A stretch of DNA of 64,000 nucleotides from assembly GCF_054482525.1 (NCBI RefSeq), contig NZ_CM137006.1. One strand, written 5' to 3'. How positions within the stretch are numbered: position 1 is the first letter of the stretch; each line of letters starts with the position of its first letter. The notes beneath the pieces were generated by a model that saw nothing but the letters and a program-made list of their open reading frames with translations, did no database searches and was not told the DNA's origin. Positions 4,093 through 14,743 of the stretch are shown here, piece after piece. A program made the translations under genes and the position numbers.

Positions 4093-4241
4093 CCCCTCAC
4101 TCATTGACCATGAATAAAAGGCTGGCACAGCAACGCAGAATCCTGCGGTGCCAGCGACATGACCGCCCATTGCTCCGGTACGTTTTTTAATAAAAAACAC
4201 CGGTTGCATTGATTAATTGTGCTCAGGGTAATGACTCCAAC

Positions 4242-4745
4242 TTATTGATAGTGTTTTATGTTCAGATAATGCCCGATGACTTTGTCATGCAGCTCCACCG
4301 ATTTTGAGAACGACAGCGACTTCCGTCCCAGCCGTGCCAGGTGCTGCCTCAGATTCAGGTTATGCCGCTCAATTCGCTGCGTATATCGCTTGCTGATTAC
4401 GTGCAGCTTTCCCTTCAGGCGGGATTCATACAGCGGCCAGCCATCCGTCATCCATATCACCACGTCAAAGGGTGACAGCAGGCTCATAAGACGCCCCAGC
4501 GTCGCCATAGTGCGTTCACCGAATACGTGCGCAACAACCGTCTTCCGGAGACTGTCATACGCGTAAAACAGCCAGCGCTGGCGCGATTTAGCCCCGACAT
4601 AGCCCCACTGTTCGTCCATTTCCGCGCAGACGATGACGTCACTGCCCGGCTGTATGCGCGAGGTTACCGACTGCGGCCTGAGTTTTTTAAGTGACGTAAA
4701 ATCGTGTTGAGGCCAACGCCCATAATGCGGGCAGTTGCCCGGCAT
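4242..4745 (-). CDS. insB: IS1 InsB (transposase catalytic part, normally expressed as InsAB' by -1 frameshift)
   Basis: 167-aa ORF overlapping insA 3' end in the -1 frame; canonical IS1 organisation. Confidence 0.9.
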
Positions 4746-4939
4746 CCAACGCCATTCATGGCCATATCAATGATTTTCTGGTGCGTACCGGGTTGAGAAG
4801 CGGTGTAAGTGAACTGCAGTTGCCATGTTTTACGGCAGTGAGAGCAGAGATAGCGCTGATGTCCGGCGGTGCTTTTGCCGTTACGCACCACCCCGTCAGT
4901 AGCTGAACAGGAGGGACAGCTGATAGAAACAGAAGCCAC
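4664..4939 (-). CDS. insA: IS1 InsA
   Basis: 91-aa [46 protein letters not shown], zinc-finger plus HTH, canonical IS1 InsA. Confidence 0.92.
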
Positions 4940-5226
4940 TGGAGCACCTCAAAAACACCATCATACACTAAATCAGTAAGTTGGCAGCATCACCTGTGCT
5001 CAGTATTTGCCGAAGTACAATATATATAATAAATATATAAAACACCTCATATTATTTACAGAGATAATAAATTCGCGTACTTTTCCCTCTTCAGCACAAA
5101 TGCCTAATAAAGTGGCGCGTTCAGCTCACACTTCTACTTATTAAAGTCGCAATTTCCCAATTATGATAACGCCAGCTTTAAATGACGTATTTTGCATGGA
5201 TTACATATTTACGACATAAATGATAA

Positions 5227-8758: not shown

Positions 8759-10809
8759 TGAGCGCGCTCAACTCCCTGCCATTACCGGTGGTCAGGCTGC
8801 TGGCGTTCTTTCATGAAGAGTTAAGCGAGCGGCGACCAGGCCGCGTGCCGCAGACTATGCAACTCTGGGTAGGCTGCCTGCTGGTGATTCTGATCTCGAT
8901 GACTTTTGAGATCCCTTTTGTGGCGTTATCGCTGGCAGTGCTGTTTTACGGTATTCAGTCGAACGCGTTTTACACCAAATTTGTCGCGATCTTGTTTGTG
9001 GTCGCCACGATGCTGGAGATCGGCAGCCTGTTTTTGATCTACAAATGGTCATATGGCGAACCGTTGATCCGATTGATCATCGCCGGACCGATCCTGATGG
9101 GCTGCATGTTTTTGATGCGCACCCATCGGCTGGGGCTGGTCTTTTTCGCCGTCGCCATTGTCGCTATTTACGGGCAAACCTTCCCCGCCATGCTCGACTA
9201 TCCGGAAGTGGTCGTGCGCTTAACCCTGTGGTGTATCGTTGTCGGCCTCTACCCGACGTTATTGATGACGTTAATCGGCGTGCTGTGGTTTCCCAGCCGC
9301 GCTATCACGCAGATGCATCAGGCGCTTAATGATCGGCTTGATGATGCCATTAGTCACCTGACGGACAGCCTCGCACCGCTACCCGAAACGCGGATTGAAA
9401 GAGAGGCGCTGGCGCTGCAAAAACTCAATGTCTTTTGCCTCGCGGACGATGCCAACTGGCGAACTCAGAGCGCATGGTGGCAAAGCTGCGTGGCAACGGT
9501 AACCTACATTTACTCGACGCTGAATCGCTACGATCCCACCTCTTTTGCTGATTCTCAGGCAATTATTGAATTTCGGCAAAAATTAGCCTCAGAAATCAAC
9601 AAACTGCAGCATGCCATTGCCGAAGGTCAGTGCTGGCAAAGCGACTGGCGGATCACTGAAAGTGAAGCGATGGCGGCACGGGAATGTAACCTGGAGAATA
9701 TCTGCCAGACATTGTTGCAACTGGGTCAGATGGACCCGAATACGCCGCCAACGCCCGCCGCCAAACCGCCATCAATGGTCGCCGATGCTTTTACCAATCC
9801 AGACTATATGCGCTACGCGGTAAAAACGCTGCTCGCCTGTTTGATCTGTTACACCTTCTACAGCGGCGTGGACTGGGAAGGCATTCACACCTGTATGCTG
9901 ACCTGCGTGATCGTCGCTAACCCGAATGTTGGTTCGTCGTATCAGAAAATGGCGCTGCGTTTTGGCGGTGCCTTCTGCGGTGCAATTCTGGCGCTGTTAT
10001 TCACGTTACTGGTCATGCCCTGGCTGGACAATATTGTCGAATTGCTATTTGTGCTGGCACCGATTTTTCTGTTGGGCGCATGGATTGCCACCAGCTCTGA
10101 ACGCTCTTCTTATATCGGCACACAGATGGTGGTCACCTTCGCGCTCGCCACGCTCGAAAACGTTTTTGGCCCGGTGTACGACCTGGTGGAAATTCGCGAT
10201 CGCGCCCTGGGTATCATCATTGGTACCGTGGTGTCCGCGGTGATTTACACCTTTGTCTGGCCTGAAAGTGAAGCGCGCACACTGCCGCAAAAACTGGCTG
10301 GCGCGCTGGGTATGTTGAGTAAAGTAATGCGGATCCCACGCCAGCAGGAAGTCACGGCTCTGCGCACTTATCTGCAAATTCGTATAGGTCTGCATGCGGC
10401 GTTTAATGCCTGTGAAGAGATGTGCCAACGCGTGGCGCTGGAGCGTCAACTGGACAGCGAAGAACGCGCTTTACTGATTGAACGTTCGCAAACGGTTATT
10501 CGTCAGGGCCGCGATATTCTTCACGCCTGGGATGCAACCTGGAACTCGGCGCAGGCGCTGGATAACGCACTACAGCCGGACAGAGCAGGTCAGTTTGCCG
10601 ACGCACTGGAGAAATACGCTGCCGGTCTGGCAACCGCACTCAGCCGTTCTCCTCAAATAACGCTTGAAGAAACACCCGCCTCGCAGGCCATCCTGCCGAC
10701 CTTATTAAAACAGGAACAACACGTCTGCCAGCTTTTCGCCCGCTTGCCAGACTGGACAGCCCCGGCATTAACGCCCGCCAAGGAACAGGTACAAGGAGCC
10801 ACGCAATGA
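8758..10809 (+). CDS. mdtO: MdtO, inner-membrane efflux transporter (aromatic acid exporter family)
   Basis: 683-aa polytopic membrane ORF, start overlaps mdtN stop. Confidence 0.85.
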   Translation: MSALNSLPLPVVRLLAFFHEELSERRPGRVPQTMQLWVGCLLVILISMTFEIPFVALSLAVLFYGIQSNAFYTKFVAILFVVATMLEIGSLFLIYKWSYGEPLIRLIIAGPILMGCMFLMRTHRLGLVFFAVAIVAIYGQTFPAMLDYPEVVVRLTLWCIVVGLYPTLLMTLIGVLWFPSRAITQMHQALNDRLDDAISHLTDSLAPLPETRIEREALALQKLNVFCLADDANWRTQSAWWQSCVATVTYIYSTLNRYDPTSFADSQAIIEFRQKLASEINKLQHAIAEGQCWQSDWRITESEAMAARECNLENICQTLLQLGQMDPNTPPTPAAKPPSMVADAFTNPDYMRYAVKTLLACLICYTFYSGVDWEGIHTCMLTCVIVANPNVGSSYQKMALRFGGAFCGAILALLFTLLVMPWLDNIVELLFVLAPIFLLGAWIATSSERSSYIGTQMVVTFALATLENVFGPVYDLVEIRDRALGIIIGTVVSAVIYTFVWPESEARTLPQKLAGALGMLSKVMRIPRQQEVTALRTYLQIRIGLHAAFNACEEMCQRVALERQLDSEERALLIERSQTVIRQGRDILHAWDATWNSAQALDNALQPDRAGQFADALEKYAAGLATALSRSPQITLEETPASQAILPTLLKQEQHVCQLFARLPDWTAPALTPAKEQVQGATQ

Positions 10810-12305
10810 TCAATCGTCAACTTTCACGTCTGCTGTTGTGCAGCATTCTCGGCAGCACGACGCTGATTTCCGGCTGTGCCCTGGTACGTAAGGATTCTGC
10901 ACCTCATCAACAGCTCAAACCGGAACAAATCAAACTGGCCGATGATATTCATCTTGCCAGCTCCGGCTGGCCGCAGGCGCAGTGGTGGAAACAACTCAAT
11001 GACCCGCAGCTGGATGCGCTGATCCAACGGACGCTAAGTGGTTCACACACCCTCGCCGAAGCGAAACTGCGGGAAGAAAAAGCGCAGTCGCAGGCCGATT
11101 TGTTAGATGCCGGTTCACAGTTGCAGGTGGCCGCGTTAGGGATGCTCAACCGACAACGTGTCTCGGCGAACGGCTTTTTAAGCCCTTATGCGATGGATGC
11201 GCCAGCACTGGGTATGGACGGGCCGTACTATACGGAAGCCACAGTCGGTTTGTTTGCCGGACTGGATCTTGATTTGTGGGGTGTGCATCGCTCAGCGGTT
11301 GCCGCCGCCATTGGCGCGCATAATGCCGCGCTGGCAGAAACCGCAGCAGTAGAGCTATCGCTGACCACGGGCGTAGCGCAGCTTTATTACAGTATGCAGG
11401 CCAGCTATCAGATGCTCGATCTGTTAGAACAAACACGCGATGTGATTGATTACGCGGTGAAAGCGCACCAGAGTAAAGTGGCGCACGGTCTGGAAGCGCA
11501 CCAGAGTAAAGTGGCGCACGGTCTGGAAGCGCAAGTGCCTTTCCACGGCGCGCGGGCACAGATTCTGGCGGTCGATAAACAAATTGCTGCCGTTAAAGGG
11601 CAAATCACCGAAACGCGAGAATCTCTGCGTGCATTGATTGGCGCGGGAGCCAGCGATATGCCGGAGATCAAACCGGTGGCATTACCGCAAGTCCAGACCG
11701 GCATTCCGGCGACACTCTCTTATGAGTTGCTCGCCAGACGCCCGGATCTGCAAGCCATGCGCTGGTATGTTCAGGCGTCATTAGATCAGGTGGATTCCGC
11801 GCGGGCGCTGTTCTATCCGAGCTTTGATATCAAAGCGTTTTTCGGCCTGGATTCTATCCACCTGGATACCTTATTCAAAAAAACCAGTCGCCAGTTCAAC
11901 TTTATCCCAGGTCTGAAATTGCCGCTGTTTGACGGTGGACGGTTGAATGCCAATCTCGAAGGCACTCGCGCCGCCAGCAACATGATGATTGAACGTTACA
12001 ACCAGTCAGTGCTGAATGCGGTGCGCGACGTTGCCGTCAACGGCACGCGTCTGCAAACGCTCAACGACGAGCGAGAGATGCAGGCTGAACGCGTGGAAGC
12101 AACGCGCTTCACCCAGCGCGCTGCCGAGGCCGCCTATCAACGCGGCTTAACCAGCCGCTTACAGGCCACCGAAGCCCGGTTGCCAGTGCTTGCCGAGGAG
12201 ATGTCATTACTGATGCTGGACAGCCGCCGGGTGATCCAAAGCATTCAGTTGATGAAATCGCTGGGCGGCGGGTATCAGGCAAGTCCCGTCGTCGAGAAAA
12301 AATAA
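10806..12305 (+). CDS. mdtP: MdtP, outer-membrane efflux factor (TolC/OprM family lipoprotein); 499 aa here, with an 11-aa in-frame tandem duplication
   Basis: Lipoprotein signal with LISGC lipobox; 499-aa ORF versus 488 aa recalled for K-12; contains duplicated HQSKVAHGLEA. Confidence 0.85.
   Translation: MINRQLSRLLLCSILGSTTLISGCALVRKDSAPHQQLKPEQIKLADDIHLASSGWPQAQWWKQLNDPQLDALIQRTLSGSHTLAEAKLREEKAQSQADLLDAGSQLQVAALGMLNRQRVSANGFLSPYAMDAPALGMDGPYYTEATVGLFAGLDLDLWGVHRSAVAAAIGAHNAALAETAAVELSLTTGVAQLYYSMQASYQMLDLLEQTRDVIDYAVKAHQSKVAHGLEAHQSKVAHGLEAQVPFHGARAQILAVDKQIAAVKGQITETRESLRALIGAGASDMPEIKPVALPQVQTGIPATLSYELLARRPDLQAMRWYVQASLDQVDSARALFYPSFDIKAFFGLDSIHLDTLFKKTSRQFNFIPGLKLPLFDGGRLNANLEGTRAASNMMIERYNQSVLNAVRDVAVNGTRLQTLNDEREMQAERVEATRFTQRAAEAAYQRGLTSRLQATEARLPVLAEEMSLLMLDSRRVIQSIQLMKSLGGGYQASPVVEKK
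11463..11528 (+). repeat. Perfect 33-bp direct tandem duplication inside mdtP
   Basis: GCGCACCAGAGTAAAGTGGCGCACGGTCTGGAA occurs twice back to back (11463-11495 and 11496-11528). Confidence 0.9.
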
Positions 12306-12307
12306 AA

Positions 12308-12336
12308 TGTCTGCCGCGTGATGGCTGTCACGCGGT
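12308..12336 (+). terminator. Rho-independent terminator after mdtP
   Basis: Hairpin GCCGCGTGA-TGGCTG-TCACGCGGT followed by ATTTCGTTT. Confidence 0.6.
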
Positions 12337-12435
12337 ATTTCGTTTCGTCACGTCAAAACTGACGACAGCCTGTTTTTCGTCAGAGTTTTGAATAAATAGT
12401 GCCCGTAATATCAGGGAATGACCCCAAATAAAATG

Positions 12436-12452
12436 TGGCATAAAAGATGCAT
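12436..12452 (+). promoter_or_regulatory. Sigma-54 (-24/-12) promoter of fdhF, preceded by FhlA-type upstream activating repeats (about 12340-12400)
   Basis: TGGCATAAAAGATGCA matches the TGGCAC-N5-TTGCA consensus; upstream TCGTCA/TGACGA repeats. Confidence 0.75.
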
Positions 12453-12502
12453 ACTGTAGTCGAGAGCGCGTATGCGTGATTTGATTAACTGGAGCGAGAC
12501 CG

Positions 12503-14650
12503 ATGAAAAAAGTCGTCACGGTTTGCCCCTATTGCGCATCAGGTTGCAAAATCAACCTGGTCGTCGATAACGGCAAAATCGTCCGGGCGGAGGCAGCGCA
12601 GGGGAAAACCAACCAGGGTACCCTGTGTCTGAAGGGTTATTATGGCTGGGATTTCATTAACGATACCCAGATCCTGACCCCGCGCCTGAAAACCCCCATG
12701 ATCCGTCGCCAGCGTGGCGGCAAACTCGAACCTGTTTCCTGGGATGAGGCACTGAATTACGTTGCCGAGCGCCTGAGCGCCATCAAAGAGAAGTACGGTC
12801 CGGATGCCATCCAGACGACCGGCTCCTCGCGTGGTACGGGTAACGAAACCAACTATGTAATGCAAAAATTTGCGCGCGCCGTTATTGGTACCAATAACGT
12901 TGACTGCTGCGCTCGTGTCTGACACGGCCCATCGGTTGCAGGTCTGCACCAATCGGTCGGTAATGGCGCAATGAGCAATGCTATTAACGAAATTGATAAT
13001 ACCGATTTAGTGTTCGTTTTCGGGTACAACCCGGCGGATTCCCACCCAATCGTGGCGAACCACGTAATTAACGCTAAACGTAACGGGGCGAAAATTATCG
13101 TCTGCGATCCGCGCAAAATTGAAACCGCGCGCATTGCTGACATGCACATTGCACTGAAAAACGGCTCGAACATCGCGCTGTTGAATGCGATGGGCCATGT
13201 CATTATTGAAGAAAATCTGTACGACAAAGCATTCGTCGCTTCCCGTACAGAAGGCTTTGAAGAGTATCGTAAAATCGTTGAAGGCTACACGCCGGAGTCG
13301 GTTGAAGATATCACCGGCGTCAGCGCCAATGAGATTCGTCAGGCGGCACGGATGTATGCCCAGGCGAAAAGCGCCGCCATCCTGTGGGGCATGGGTGTAA
13401 CCCAGTTCTACCAGGGCGTGGAAACCGTGCGTTCTCTGACCAGCCTCGCGATGCTGACCGGTAACCTCGGTAAGCCACATGCGGGTGTTAACCCGGTTCG
13501 TGGTCAGAACAACGTACAGGGTGCCTGCGATATGGGCGCGCTGCCGGATACGTATCCGGGATACCAGTACGTGAAAGATCCGGCTAACCGCGAGAAATTC
13601 GCCAAAGCCTGGGGCGTGGAAAGCCTGCCTGCTCATACCGGTTATCGCATCAGCGAGCTGCCGCACCGCGCAGCGCATGGTGAAGTGCGTGCCGCGTACA
13701 TTATGGGCGAAGATCCGCTGCAAACTGACGCGGAGCTGTCGGCAGTACGTAAAGCCTTTGAAGATCTGGAACTGGTTATCGTTCAGGACATCTTTATGAC
13801 CAAAACCGCGTCGGCGGCGGATGTTATTTTACCGTCAACGTCGTGGGGCGAGCATGAAGGCGTGTTTACTGCGGCTGACCGTGGCTTCCAGCGTTTCTTC
13901 AAAGCGGTTGAACCGAAGTGGGATCTGAAAACGGACTGGCAGATTATCAGTGAAATCGCCACTCGTATGGGTTATCCGATGCACTACAACAACACCCAGG
14001 AGATCTGGGATGAGTTGCGTCATCTGTGCCCGGATTTCTACGGTGCGACTTACGAGAAAATGGGCGAACTGGGCTTCATTCAGTGGCCTTGCCGCGATAC
14101 TTCAGATGCCGATCAGGGGACTTCTTATCTGTTTAAAGAGAAGTTTGATACCCCGAACGGTCTGGCGCAGTTCTTCACCTGCGACTGGGTAGCGCCAATC
14201 GACAAACTCACCGACGAGTACCCGATGGTACTGTCAACGGTGCGTGAAGTTGGTCACTACTCTTGCCGTTCGATGACCGGTAACTGTGCGGCACTGGCGG
14301 CGCTGGCTGATGAACCTGGCTACGCACAAATCAATACCGAAGACGCCAAACGTCTGGGTATTGAAGATGAGGCATTGGTTTGGGTGCACTCGCGTAAAGG
14401 CAAAATTATCACCCGTGCGCAGGTCAGCGATCGTCCGAACAAAGGGGCGATTTATATGACCTACCAGTGGTGGATTGGTGCCTGTAACGAGCTGGTTACC
14501 GAAAACTTAAGCCCGATTACGAAAACGCCGGAATACAAATACTGCGCCGTGCGCGTCGAGCCGATCGCCGATCAGCGCGCCGCCGAGCAGTACGTGATTG
14601 ACGAGTACAACAAGTTGAAAACTCGCCTGCGCGAAGCGGCACTGGCGTAA
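12503..14650 (+). CDS. fdhF: Formate dehydrogenase H, selenocysteine-containing (in-frame UGA at 12920-12922 is recoded)
   Basis: Two adjacent same-frame ORFs (12503-12922 and 12971-14650) joined by TGA; N-terminal MKKVVTVCPYCASGCKINL; Mo-bisPGD dehydrogenase; SECIS hairpin immediately 3' of the TGA. Confidence 0.92.
12920..12965 (+). promoter_or_regulatory. SECIS element (selenocysteine insertion sequence) of fdhF
   Basis: UGA followed directly by hairpin CACGGCCCATCGGTTGCAGGTCTGCACCAATCGGTCGG. Confidence 0.85.
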
Positions 14651-14663
14651 TACAGTCCTTTCT

Positions 14664-14691
14664 ACAGCCTCCTTTCGGAGGCTGTTTTTTT
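14664..14691 (+). terminator. Rho-independent terminator after fdhF
   Basis: ACAGCCTCC-TTTC-GGAGGCTGT followed by TTTTTTT. Confidence 0.85.
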
Positions 14692-14743
14692 ATCCATTCG
14701 AACTCTTTATACTGGTTACTCCCTACCCAATCGTATTATCAAA

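What the first reader, a model, noticed from the sequence alone, without database searches (positions are those of the whole stretch)
12503..14650. fdhF selenocysteine recoding: in-frame TGA with SECIS hairpin splits the gene into two ORFs in naive calls
The six-frame track shows two ORFs (12503-12922 and 12971-14650) in the same frame separated only by TGA at 12920-12922. The canonical fdhF SECIS stem-loop follows the TGA directly, and a sigma-54 promoter (TGGCATAAAAGATGCA) with upstream FhlA-type repeats precedes the gene. This is well described but an annotation trap, and it is intact here.
Basis: partly seen in the sequence, partly recalled or inferred. Interest (0 to 1): 0.3.

Follow-up and report, generated by a model that had tools for sequence, protein, structure and literature searches.

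The report
E. coli fdhF selenocysteine UGA and SECIS
This is the ordinary, intact Escherichia coli fdhF gene for formate dehydrogenase H, whose in-frame TGA is read as selenocysteine with the help of an RNA hairpin just after it; it is textbook biology, and matters only because simple gene callers cut the gene in two.

Summary
Window 12503-14650 (+) is one 716-codon frame whose only internal stop is TGA at 12920-12922 (codon 140). Naive ORF calling gives exactly the two ORFs reported.

- **Protein:** it aligns over 715/715 residues with solved E. coli FDH-H (1AA6, 1FDO, 2IV2, 7Z0T), whose non-standard residue 140 sits at the TGA. It differs from K-12 only by S276N.
- **SECIS:** Rfam SECIS_2 matches 12915-12969 at 87.1 bits (gathering score 70). 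In 110 distinct homologues from other Enterobacterales, the six codons over the upper stem-loop use the same codon every time, while synonymous sites elsewhere vary freely.
- **Promoter:** the σ54 motif (12435-12451) is identical to a published K-12 ChIP-seq site. Upstream TTTCGTCA/TGACGA repeats are real and conserved across genera. Their assignment to FhlA rests on literature and was only weakly tested here.
- **Sec machinery:** selAB, selC and selD lie outside the window but occur in at least 5,424 of 5,426 complete E. coli genomes.
- **Annotation trap:** both fragments exist verbatim as separate public database entries.

The hairpin's folding energy (z about -1) and the σ54 motif count are not significant on their own.

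Verdict: already known, low interest.

The parts
12343..12383 (+). Upstream repeat cluster, the putative FhlA upstream activating sequence: TTTCGTCA (12343-12350), TGACGA (12360-12365) and TTTCGTCAG (12375-12383). It lies about 80-120 nt upstream of the predicted transcription start.
   Evidence: Repeats found. Conserved blocks 12344-12355, 12360-12365 and 12370-12383 in a footprint over 89 loci from other Enterobacterales. TTTCGWC also occurs twice in the K-12 hycA-hypA intergenic region. FhlA binding itself was not tested; it comes from literature recalled from memory.
12435..12451 (+). σ54 (-24/-12) promoter GTGGCATAAAAGATGCA, with GG at 12437-12438 and GC at 12449-12450.
   Evidence: Identical to σ54 ChIP-seq motif OS41 upstream of fdhF in Bonocora et al. 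2015, PMC4591121, located in the window. TGGCA-N7-TGC[AT] is present in 78 of 89 homologous loci. The Salmonella fdhF site TGGCATAAAACATGCATA differs by one base (PMC3844500).
12462..12462 (+). Predicted transcription start, 19 nt downstream of the motif centre and 41 nt before the ATG.
   Evidence: Rule and distance (41) taken from the table footnotes of PMC4591121. The arithmetic on window coordinates is mine. This is a prediction, not a mapped 5' end.
12491..12494 (+). Shine-Dalgarno GGAG, 8 nt before the ATG.
   Evidence: Read from the sequence. At least 95% conserved in the 89-locus footprint.
12503..14650 (+). fdhF coding sequence: formate dehydrogenase H, 715 residues including Sec140, stop codon included.
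12920..12922 (+). UGA codon 140, decoded as selenocysteine.
   Evidence: It aligns with the non-standard residue X140 of PDB 1AA6/1FDO/2IV2/7Z0T. The 55-nt stretch that includes it is at least 99% identical in 5,411 of 5,420 E. coli records. TGA is present in 120 loci of other species, where it was fixed by the search pattern.
12915..12969 (+). Full SECIS hairpin (Rfam SECIS_2), including the lower helix that pairs the UGA region.
   Evidence: 87.1 bits against a gathering score of 70, E = 8.5e-19, model positions 1-55 of 55. The MFE structure is identical to the consensus, -19.7 kcal/mol.
12934..12950 (+). Minimal 17-nt upper stem-loop GGUUGCAGGUCUGCACC (G15-C31 counting from the U of UGA). 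The apical loop GGUC is at 12941-12944 and the bulged U at 12936/12937. This is the inferred SelB-binding part.
   Evidence: Invariant in 119-120 of 120 loci, wobble positions included. Numbering. The SelB contacts (G23, U24, bulged U17) are established knowledge recalled from memory and were not tested.
14664..14692 (+). Intrinsic terminator after fdhF: a 9-bp stem with 6 G-C pairs, followed by a T run.
   Evidence: Terminator scan.

Best explanation
Window 12503-14650 is the intact E. coli fdhF gene for formate dehydrogenase H, the molybdenum- and selenium-containing formate-oxidising subunit of the formate hydrogenlyase complex.

Codon 140 is UGA and is decoded as selenocysteine, not as stop. 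The mRNA just 3' of the UGA folds into the SECIS hairpin (12915-12969). Its 17-nt upper stem-loop (12934-12950, loop GGUC, bulged U) is bound by the specialised elongation factor SelB carrying Sec-tRNA(Sec). That tethers the ternary complex to the ribosome as the UGA enters the A site and lets it outcompete release factor 2. The selenocysteine is a ligand of the molybdenum centre.

Transcription starts from a σ54 (-24/-12) promoter at 12435-12451. Such a promoter requires an enhancer-binding activator, which for fdhF is FhlA responding to formate, bound at the conserved repeat cluster about 80-120 nt upstream (12343-12383). Transcription ends at the terminator at 14664-14692.

Shown here: gene identity, an open frame apart from the TGA, the Rfam SECIS match, RNA-level constraint on the SECIS, identity of the promoter motif with a ChIP-seq site, and conservation of the upstream repeats. 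Inferred from established knowledge: SelB binding, competition with RF2, Sec as a Mo ligand, and FhlA binding with formate induction.
For: - **Frame:** a single in-frame TGA and no frameshift.
- **Protein:** 715/715 aligned to FDH-H structures 1AA6, 1FDI, 1FDO, 2IV2 and 7Z0T, with X140 at the TGA. The only difference from K-12 is S276N, and there are no nucleotide differences in 12915-12969. TIGR01591 scores 1088.9 bits against a cutoff of 666.25.
- **Annotation:** RefSeq annotates one fdhF CDS spanning the TGA in PCN033 and K-12. The locus is present in 5,418 of 5,426 complete E. coli genomes.
- **SECIS:** Rfam SECIS_2 at 87.1 bits, gathering score 70. The MFE fold equals the consensus structure. 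There are 18 nt between the UGA and the apical loop, within the 16-37 nt quoted for bacteria (PMC10778597).
- **RNA-level constraint:** in 110 distinct homologues with 70-100% amino-acid identity over 140 codons, codons +4 to +9 (TCG GTT GCA GGT CTG CAC) are identical in 110/110. Mean synonymous-codon entropy is 0.147 bit over codons +5 to +10, 0.42 in the lower stem and 0.97 in the rest. The loop GGUC is 120/120 and upper-stem pairs are 119-120/120.
- **Promoter:** the σ54 motif is identical to K-12 ChIP-seq site OS41, with a predicted start 41 nt before the ATG. It is present in 78 of 89 loci. Salmonella fdhF is listed as σ54- and FhlA-dependent (PMC3844500).
- **Upstream repeats:** conserved across genera.
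- **Sec machinery in E. coli:** selC in 5,424, selAB in 5,425 and selD in 5,425 of 5,426 genomes.
Against: Nothing contradicts the explanation. Several individual lines are weaker than they look.

- The hairpin's folding energy is unremarkable (z = -1.01 and -1.23; 34 and 25 of 200 shuffles fold at least as well).
- The cross-species set shows conservation, not covariation. There are no double-sided compensatory changes. Two lower-stem pairs are often broken (17-39 paired in only 53/120, 8-47 in 102/120).
- The 110 sequences are phylogenetically related, so the counts are not independent events.
- The σ54 pattern alone occurs no more often than chance in the window (1 found, 1.07 expected).
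- The exact hexamer TCGTCA of the fdhF repeats is absent from the hycA-hypA region and occurs once upstream of hydN, so the FhlA assignment was not independently established.
- The sel genes are outside the window, so their presence in this particular genome is inferred from near-universality in the species.
Confidence: 0.97

Rival explanations
1. fdhF is a pseudogene in this strain. The TGA would be a nonsense mutation that truncates the protein at 139 residues, leaving the downstream ORF as a non-functional remnant.
For: Naive ORF calling gives two pieces. Public databases hold the pieces as separate proteins.
Against: The TGA and the 55 nt around it are at least 99% identical in 5,411 of 5,420 E. 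coli records, and TGA occurs at the homologous codon in 120 loci of other species. The downstream 575 codons are open and differ from K-12 by one residue. The solved structures carry a non-standard residue at 140. A curated SECIS model matches above its threshold.
Confidence: 0.005
2. These are two genuinely separate genes: a small Fe-S/molybdopterin N-terminal protein and a larger C-terminal protein restarting at ATG 12971, which assemble after translation.
For: An ATG at 12971 opens a 559-aa ORF in the same frame. Gene callers annotate it this way in L007.
Against: The 16 codons between the TGA and ATG 12971 are open and conserved, and they align with residues 141-156 of the solved single-chain structure. 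No Shine-Dalgarno sequence was examined or required there. RefSeq and PDB both treat the gene as one chain of 715 residues.
Confidence: 0.005
3. The UGA is read through without selenocysteine, for example by near-cognate Trp or Cys insertion, and the conserved downstream sequence reflects protein constraint or another RNA function rather than a SelB-dependent SECIS.
For: The hairpin energy is not exceptional, there is no covariation, and the sel genes are not in the window.
Against: Wobble positions, which protein constraint does not fix, are invariant exactly over the 17-nt SelB-binding stem-loop and variable on either side. The Rfam SECIS_2 match is full length. The sel genes are near-universal in E. 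coli. From established knowledge, Sec140 is seen in the FDH-H crystal structures.
Confidence: 0.01

Closest known systems
E. coli K-12 fdhF (b4079), formate dehydrogenase H; PDB 1AA6, 1FDO, 1FDI, 2IV2, 7Z0T
   Same: Same gene and same neighbours (mdtP upstream, yjcO downstream), same length, and TGA at codon 140. The SECIS is identical, the σ54 motif is identical, and the protein is 714/715 identical.
   Different: There are 20 synonymous or near-synonymous nucleotide differences in the CDS, giving one substitution (S276N). There is one base difference in the 197-nt upstream region (12427) and one just downstream (14654). None lies in a functional element identified here.
Rfam RF01988 SECIS_2 (bacterial selenocysteine insertion sequence, fdhF type)
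   Same: Full-length match, model positions 1-55 of 55, at 87.1 bits against a gathering score of 70. The predicted MFE structure equals the family consensus structure.
   Different: Nothing of note; two consensus positions are matched by compatible bases.
Rfam RF01989 SECIS_3 (a related bacterial SECIS family)
   Same: Partial similarity at 35.8 bits, with the same UGA-proximal position.
   Different: Below the gathering score (63), with several non-canonical pairs in the alignment. The element is not a member.
σ54/FhlA-dependent promoters of the formate regulon (hyc, hyp, hydN-hypF)
   Same: A -24/-12 promoter with GG-N10-GC, and an upstream repeat cluster at enhancer distance. The heptamer TTTCGWC occurs twice in both the fdhF upstream region and the hycA-hypA intergenic region.
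   Different: The exact TCGTCA/TGACGA hexamer of fdhF is absent from hycA-hypA and occurs once upstream of hydN. No common FhlA motif was derived here.

Membership tests
Bacterial SECIS, Rfam RF01988 (SECIS_2) | Covariance-model score at or above the curated gathering score | tested here: met
   87.1 bits against 70, E = 8.5e-19, full model length, at 12915-12969 +.
Bacterial SECIS, Rfam RF01988 (SECIS_2) | Hairpin immediately 3' of an in-frame UGA inside the ORF, with 16-37 nt between the UGA and the apical loop | tested here: met
   UGA at 12920-12922 and loop at 12941-12944, so 18 nt lie between them. The range is quoted in PMC10778597.
Bacterial SECIS, Rfam RF01988 (SECIS_2) | 17-nt upper stem-loop with apical loop GGUC (G23, U24) and a bulged U17/U18, the SelB contact surface | tested here: met
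   The sequence GGUUGCAGGUCUGCACC is at positions 15-31 from the U of UGA. The fold leaves one U of the UU pair unpaired. It is invariant in 119-120 of 120 loci. Which bases SelB contacts is recalled from the literature.
Bacterial SECIS, Rfam RF01988 (SECIS_2) | Selective constraint on the RNA beyond the protein code | tested here: met
   Codons +4 to +9 use the same codon in 110/110 sequences. Mean synonymous-codon entropy is 0.147 bit over codons +5 to +10 against 0.97 in the flanks.
Bacterial SECIS, Rfam RF01988 (SECIS_2) | Covariation supporting the helices | tested here: inconclusive
   No double-sided compensatory changes. Only one-sided changes keep pairing (2-54, 5-51, 11-45, 18-38), and pairs 17-39 and 8-47 are often broken.
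Bacterial SECIS, Rfam RF01988 (SECIS_2) | SelB binding and SelB/tRNA(Sec)-dependent UGA decoding | not testable with these tools
   This needs biochemistry or genetics.
Formate dehydrogenase H (FdhF; NCBIfam TIGR01591, Fdh-alpha) | HMM score above the curated cutoff | tested here: met
   1088.9 bits against 666.25, residues 6-685 on profile positions 1-672 of 672.
Formate dehydrogenase H (FdhF; NCBIfam TIGR01591, Fdh-alpha) | Full-length identity with the structurally characterised E. coli enzyme, with Sec at 140 | tested here: met
   715/715 aligned to 1AA6_A and four further entries, with X140 opposite the TGA. S276N is the only difference from K-12.
Formate dehydrogenase H (FdhF; NCBIfam TIGR01591, Fdh-alpha) | N-terminal 4Fe-4S cysteine motif (C8, C11, C15, C42) | tested here: met
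   Read directly from the translation: VCPYCASGC... and ...GTLCLKG. The role of these residues is established knowledge.
σ54-dependent promoter | GG-N10-GC core resembling TGGCAC-N5-TTGCW at a suitable distance from the gene | tested here: met
   TGGCATAAAAGATGCA at 12436-12451, 60 nt from motif centre to the ATG.
σ54-dependent promoter | σ54 occupancy of this sequence in vivo | not testable with these tools
   Reported for the identical motif in K-12 by ChIP-seq (OS41, PMC4591121) and for the Salmonella orthologue by ChIP-chip (PMC3844500).
σ54-dependent promoter | Motif occurrence above chance | tested here: inconclusive
   1 match in 64 kb against 1.07 expected. Support comes from position and from conservation in 78 of 89 loci.
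FhlA upstream activating sequence | Repeated sequence elements at enhancer distance upstream of the σ54 promoter, conserved among orthologous loci | tested here: met
FhlA upstream activating sequence | Motif shared with other FhlA-controlled promoters (hyc, hyp, hydN) | tested here: inconclusive
   TTTCGWC occurs twice in fdhF and twice in hycA-hypA. TCGTCA is absent from hycA-hypA and occurs once at hydN.
FhlA upstream activating sequence | FhlA binding and formate-dependent activation | not testable with these tools
   Rests on primary literature recalled from memory (Birkmann & Böck 1989; Schlensog et al. 1994). PMC180993 could not be opened.
Selenocysteine-decoding organism | selA, selB, selC (tRNA-Sec) and selD present in the same genome | not testable with these tools
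   None lies in the window (no tRNA), and the rest of the source genome is not available. In E. coli complete genomes, selC is in 5,424, selAB in 5,425 and selD in 5,425 of 5,426.

The most novel reading that the evidence does not exclude
The evidence leaves little room for novelty. The most that is not excluded is this: the absolute codon invariance of TCG GTT GCA GGT CTG CAC (codons +4 to +9) in 110 diverged Enterobacterales sequences, together with frequent breakage of two lower-stem pairs, might reflect a constraint beyond SelB recognition, such as a ribosome or RF2 interaction or a second RNA function. Likewise, the conserved blocks between the repeat cluster and the promoter (for example GTTTTG at 12385-12390 and 12400-12412) might be sites for an additional, undescribed regulator of fdhF.
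Probability: 0.03. Interest if true: 0.25.

Novelty: already known. Interest (0 to 1): 0.05.

Why it matters
There is no new biology here. fdhF is the founding example of bacterial UGA-to-selenocysteine recoding, and this copy is a standard, intact allele.

The practical point concerns annotation quality. Stop-to-stop ORF callers and several pipelines split or truncate the gene. The exact 139-aa and 559-aa fragments of this allele are each recorded on 1,000 contigs, the tool's counting limit. One Raoultella assembly lacks the N-terminal call altogether. Any downstream scan of this window should treat 12503-14650 as one gene and should not flag the split as a pseudogene, a frameshift or a gene pair.

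As a by-product, the cross-species codon analysis shows cleanly how an RNA element embedded in a coding region can be detected from synonymous-site invariance when folding energy and covariation are uninformative.

Tried and rejected
The hairpin forms (-14.9 kcal/mol for 49 nt, -19.7 for 55 nt), but z is only -1.0 to -1.2. I rejected it as a discriminating criterion and replaced it with the covariance model and synonymous-site analysis.
2. **Covariation.** The cross-species set has no double-sided compensatory changes, because the upper stem is invariant. It gives no support either way.
3. **σ54 pattern enrichment in the window.** Not above chance. I relied on published ChIP-seq data and on conservation instead.
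4. **Exact-hexamer test of 'FhlA-type'.** TCGTCA is not shared with hycA-hypA. Only the looser TTTCGWC is shared.
5. **Literature on the FhlA UAS.** Wang & Gunsalus 2003 (PMC180993) is not held, and two searches found no open paper giving the FhlA site sequence.
6. **Assuming the window is strain PCN033.** It is 100% identical over 12300-14700, but this is false for the whole window. There are three structural differences, so PCN033 annotations were transferred only where collinear.
7. **Tool failures.** Look-ups of P0006 and P0008 found no contig. The first Python script failed on file naming.
8. **Weak Rfam hit.** Atu_Ti3 at 14654-14689 (18.8 bits against 50) was rejected as chance; it overlaps the fdhF terminator.
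Full report
**Observation.** They are in the same frame. Translating 12503-14650 gives 716 codons with one internal stop, TGA at 12920-12922 (codon 140), and the terminal TAA. There is no frameshift. One nuance: 16 open codons (12923-12970) lie between the TGA and the next ATG and are lost by naive calling.

**Identity of the gene.** With X at position 140, the 715-residue product aligns end to end with E. coli formate dehydrogenase H in the PDB (1AA6, 1FDI, 1FDO, 2IV2, 7Z0T; 1668 bits). The deposited sequence has its non-standard residue at 140, opposite the TGA. NCBIfam TIGR01591 (formate dehydrogenase subunit alpha, equivalog) scores 1088.9 bits against a cutoff of 666.25.

The 2.4-kb region is present at 95-100% identity in 5,418 of 5,426 complete E. 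coli genomes and is annotated fdhF, flanked by mdtP and yjcO. RefSeq annotates a single 2,148-nt CDS in strain PCN033 that maps exactly to window 12503-14650, and does the same in K-12 (b4079). Against K-12 the CDS has 20 nucleotide differences and one amino-acid change (S276N). There is no difference in 12915-12969, one in the 197 nt upstream (12427) and one just downstream (14654).

**The SECIS.** Rfam 15 gives SECIS_2 (RF01988) at 12915-12969 +, 87.1 bits against a gathering score of 70, covering all 55 model positions. SECIS_3 is below threshold at 35.8 against 63. The minimum-free-energy fold of the 55 nt equals the Rfam consensus structure (-19.7 kcal/mol).

Counting from the U of UGA, the 17-nt upper stem-loop GGUUGCAGGUCUGCACC occupies positions 15-31 (window 12934-12950). 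Its loop GGUC is at 22-25, and one of U17/U18 is unpaired. Eighteen nucleotides separate the UGA from the loop, inside the 16-37 nt range quoted for bacterial SECIS elements (PMC10778597).

The z-scores against dinucleotide shuffles are only -1.01 and -1.23, and 34 and 25 of 200 shuffles fold at least as well.

**Independent test of RNA-level constraint.** I scanned one genome per species with a pattern fixed only by the peptide U-H-G-P-x-V-A-G-L-H, leaving wobble positions free.

In 110 distinct sequences (70-100% amino-acid identity to the window over 140 codons), codons +4 to +9 after the TGA are TCG GTT GCA GGT CTG CAC in 110/110. Mean synonymous-codon entropy is 0.147 bit over codons +5 to +10, 0.42 bit for lower-stem codons and 0.97 bit for the other 117 degenerate codons.

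Pair by pair, the loop GGUC is 120/120 and the six upper-stem pairs are 119-120/120. In the lower stem, one-sided changes preserve pairing at 2-54, 5-51, 11-45 and 18-38. Pairs 17-39 (53/120) and 8-47 (102/120) are often broken. There are no double-sided compensatory changes.

So the evidence is strong conservation of exactly the part known to bind SelB, not covariation, and the sequences are phylogenetically related. Within E. coli, the 55 nt are at least 99% identical in 5,411 of 5,420 records.

**Promoter and upstream repeats.** GTGGCATAAAAGATGCA at 12435-12451 is letter for letter the motif of σ54 ChIP-seq site OS41 upstream of fdhF in K-12 (Bonocora et al. 2015, PMC4591121). That paper predicts the start 19 nt downstream of the motif centre and gives 41 nt to the gene start. 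In the window this is 12462, which is 41 nt before the ATG (with my arithmetic).

The Salmonella orthologue has TGGCATAAAACATGCATA, is bound by σ54, and is listed as FhlA-dependent (PMC3844500). The consensus pattern on its own occurs once in the window against 1.07 expected, so the support comes from position, published occupancy and conservation: TGGCA-N7-TGC[AT] occurs in 78 of 89 homologous loci.

The upstream repeats are real. TTTCGTCA occurs at 12343 and 12375, and the inverted pair CTGACGA/TCGTCAG at 12359 and 12377. They coincide with the most conserved blocks of an 89-locus footprint: 12344-12355, 12360-12365 and 12370-12383. The Shine-Dalgarno GGAG (12491-12494) is also conserved.

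Whether these repeats are 'FhlA-type' could be tested only loosely. The heptamer TTTCGWC occurs twice in the fdhF region and twice in the K-12 hycA-hypA intergenic region. The hexamer TCGTCA is absent from hycA-hypA and occurs once upstream of hydN. The primary FhlA-binding literature was not retrievable, so this step rests on recalled knowledge.

**Terminator.** A terminator-like hairpin with a T run follows the gene at 14664-14692.

**Selenocysteine machinery.** No tRNA gene lies in the window. Across 5,426 complete E. coli genomes, tRNA-Sec is found in 5,424, selA-selB in 5,425 and selD in 5,425. The machinery is effectively universal in the species, but its presence in the source genome of this window is inferred, not shown.

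**The annotation trap.** Both exact fragments of this allele are in the public protein collection as separate entries. The 559-aa piece appears as, for example, AKK51009.1 and EIH12011.1. The 139-aa piece is named 'Formate dehydrogenase H'. Each is recorded on 1,000 contigs, the tool's counting limit. In a C. koseri-type contig the gene is called as 139 + 559 aa, and in a Raoultella assembly the N-terminal piece is not called at all. RefSeq/PGAP handles the gene correctly.

**Rivals.** The readings as a pseudogene, as two genes, or as Sec-independent read-through are each contradicted. The TGA and SECIS are near-universal, the intervening codons are open and conserved, the solved structure is a single chain, and wobble invariance is confined to the SelB-binding stem-loop.

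**Comparison and verdict.** This is the known E. coli fdhF selenocysteine recoding locus, a standard allele, intact. Every membership feature that could be tested was met, except covariation (uninformative) and a shared FhlA motif (inconclusive). Novelty: already known. Interest: low. The only practical consequence is to treat 12503-14650 as one gene.

**Other things seen.** The window is not strain PCN033 throughout.

- It carries an IS1A copy at 4227-4994.
- It has a perfect 33-nt in-frame tandem duplication in mdtP at 11461-11533.
- It lacks PCN033's 11.9-kb integrase/Avs4/AbiGi island.
- sraL is at 33266-33406.

Noticed in passing
window 4227-4994: A 768-nt IS1A insertion sequence, 100% identical to IS1A copies on many plasmids. 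It is absent from the otherwise near-identical strain PCN033, and a 9-bp overlap of the flanking alignments suggests a target-site duplication. It lies between yjcS and a short RpiB/LacA/LacB-like gene.
   Followed up: partly
window 11461-11533 (inside mdtP, ORF 10806-12305): A perfect 33-nt tandem duplication (2.2 copies, 100% match) that adds 11 in-frame residues to the outer-membrane efflux subunit MdtP: 499 aa here against 488 aa in PCN033 and K-12. The effect on function is unknown.
   Followed up: partly
window about 36670-36677: An empty integration site. At this junction next to ssb, strain PCN033 carries an 11.9-kb island with two integrases, an Avs4 anti-phage nuclease and an AbiGi-family gene. 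The window lacks the island, and an 8-nt overlap marks the junction.
   Followed up: no
window 33266-33406 (+): The Hfq-binding small RNA sraL (Rfam RF01408, 153.3 bits against a gathering score of 39). It is the only other Rfam family found in the window.
   Followed up: no
window 12312-12337: A terminator-like hairpin (11 pairs, then a T-rich tail) just after the mdtP stop codon. Its 3' end abuts the conserved fdhF upstream repeat cluster.
   Followed up: no
loci L028/L029, L039/L040, L051/L052, L058/L059, L062/L063, L078/L079, L084/L085: Several Enterobacterales species (Pluralibacter gergoviae, Cedecea neteri, Klebsiella oxytoca, Enterobacter sp. JUb54, Kluyvera genomosp. 3, Tenebrionibacter intestinalis, Leclercia sp.) carry two separate TGA-containing fdhF-type loci in one genome.
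   Followed up: no
locus L101: The single outlier among 120 loci. It has the same peptide motif and TGA but 24 of 55 nucleotide differences in the SECIS region, including the upper stem, so it is presumably a different SECIS variant from a distant lineage.
   Followed up: no
homologous loci (upstream regions): 11 of the 89 loci with a recognisable fdhF start lack a strict TGGCA-N7-TGC[AT] match within 215 nt upstream, and the motif's distance to the ATG varies from -52 to -86. I did not check whether these are paralogues with different regulation.
   Followed up: no
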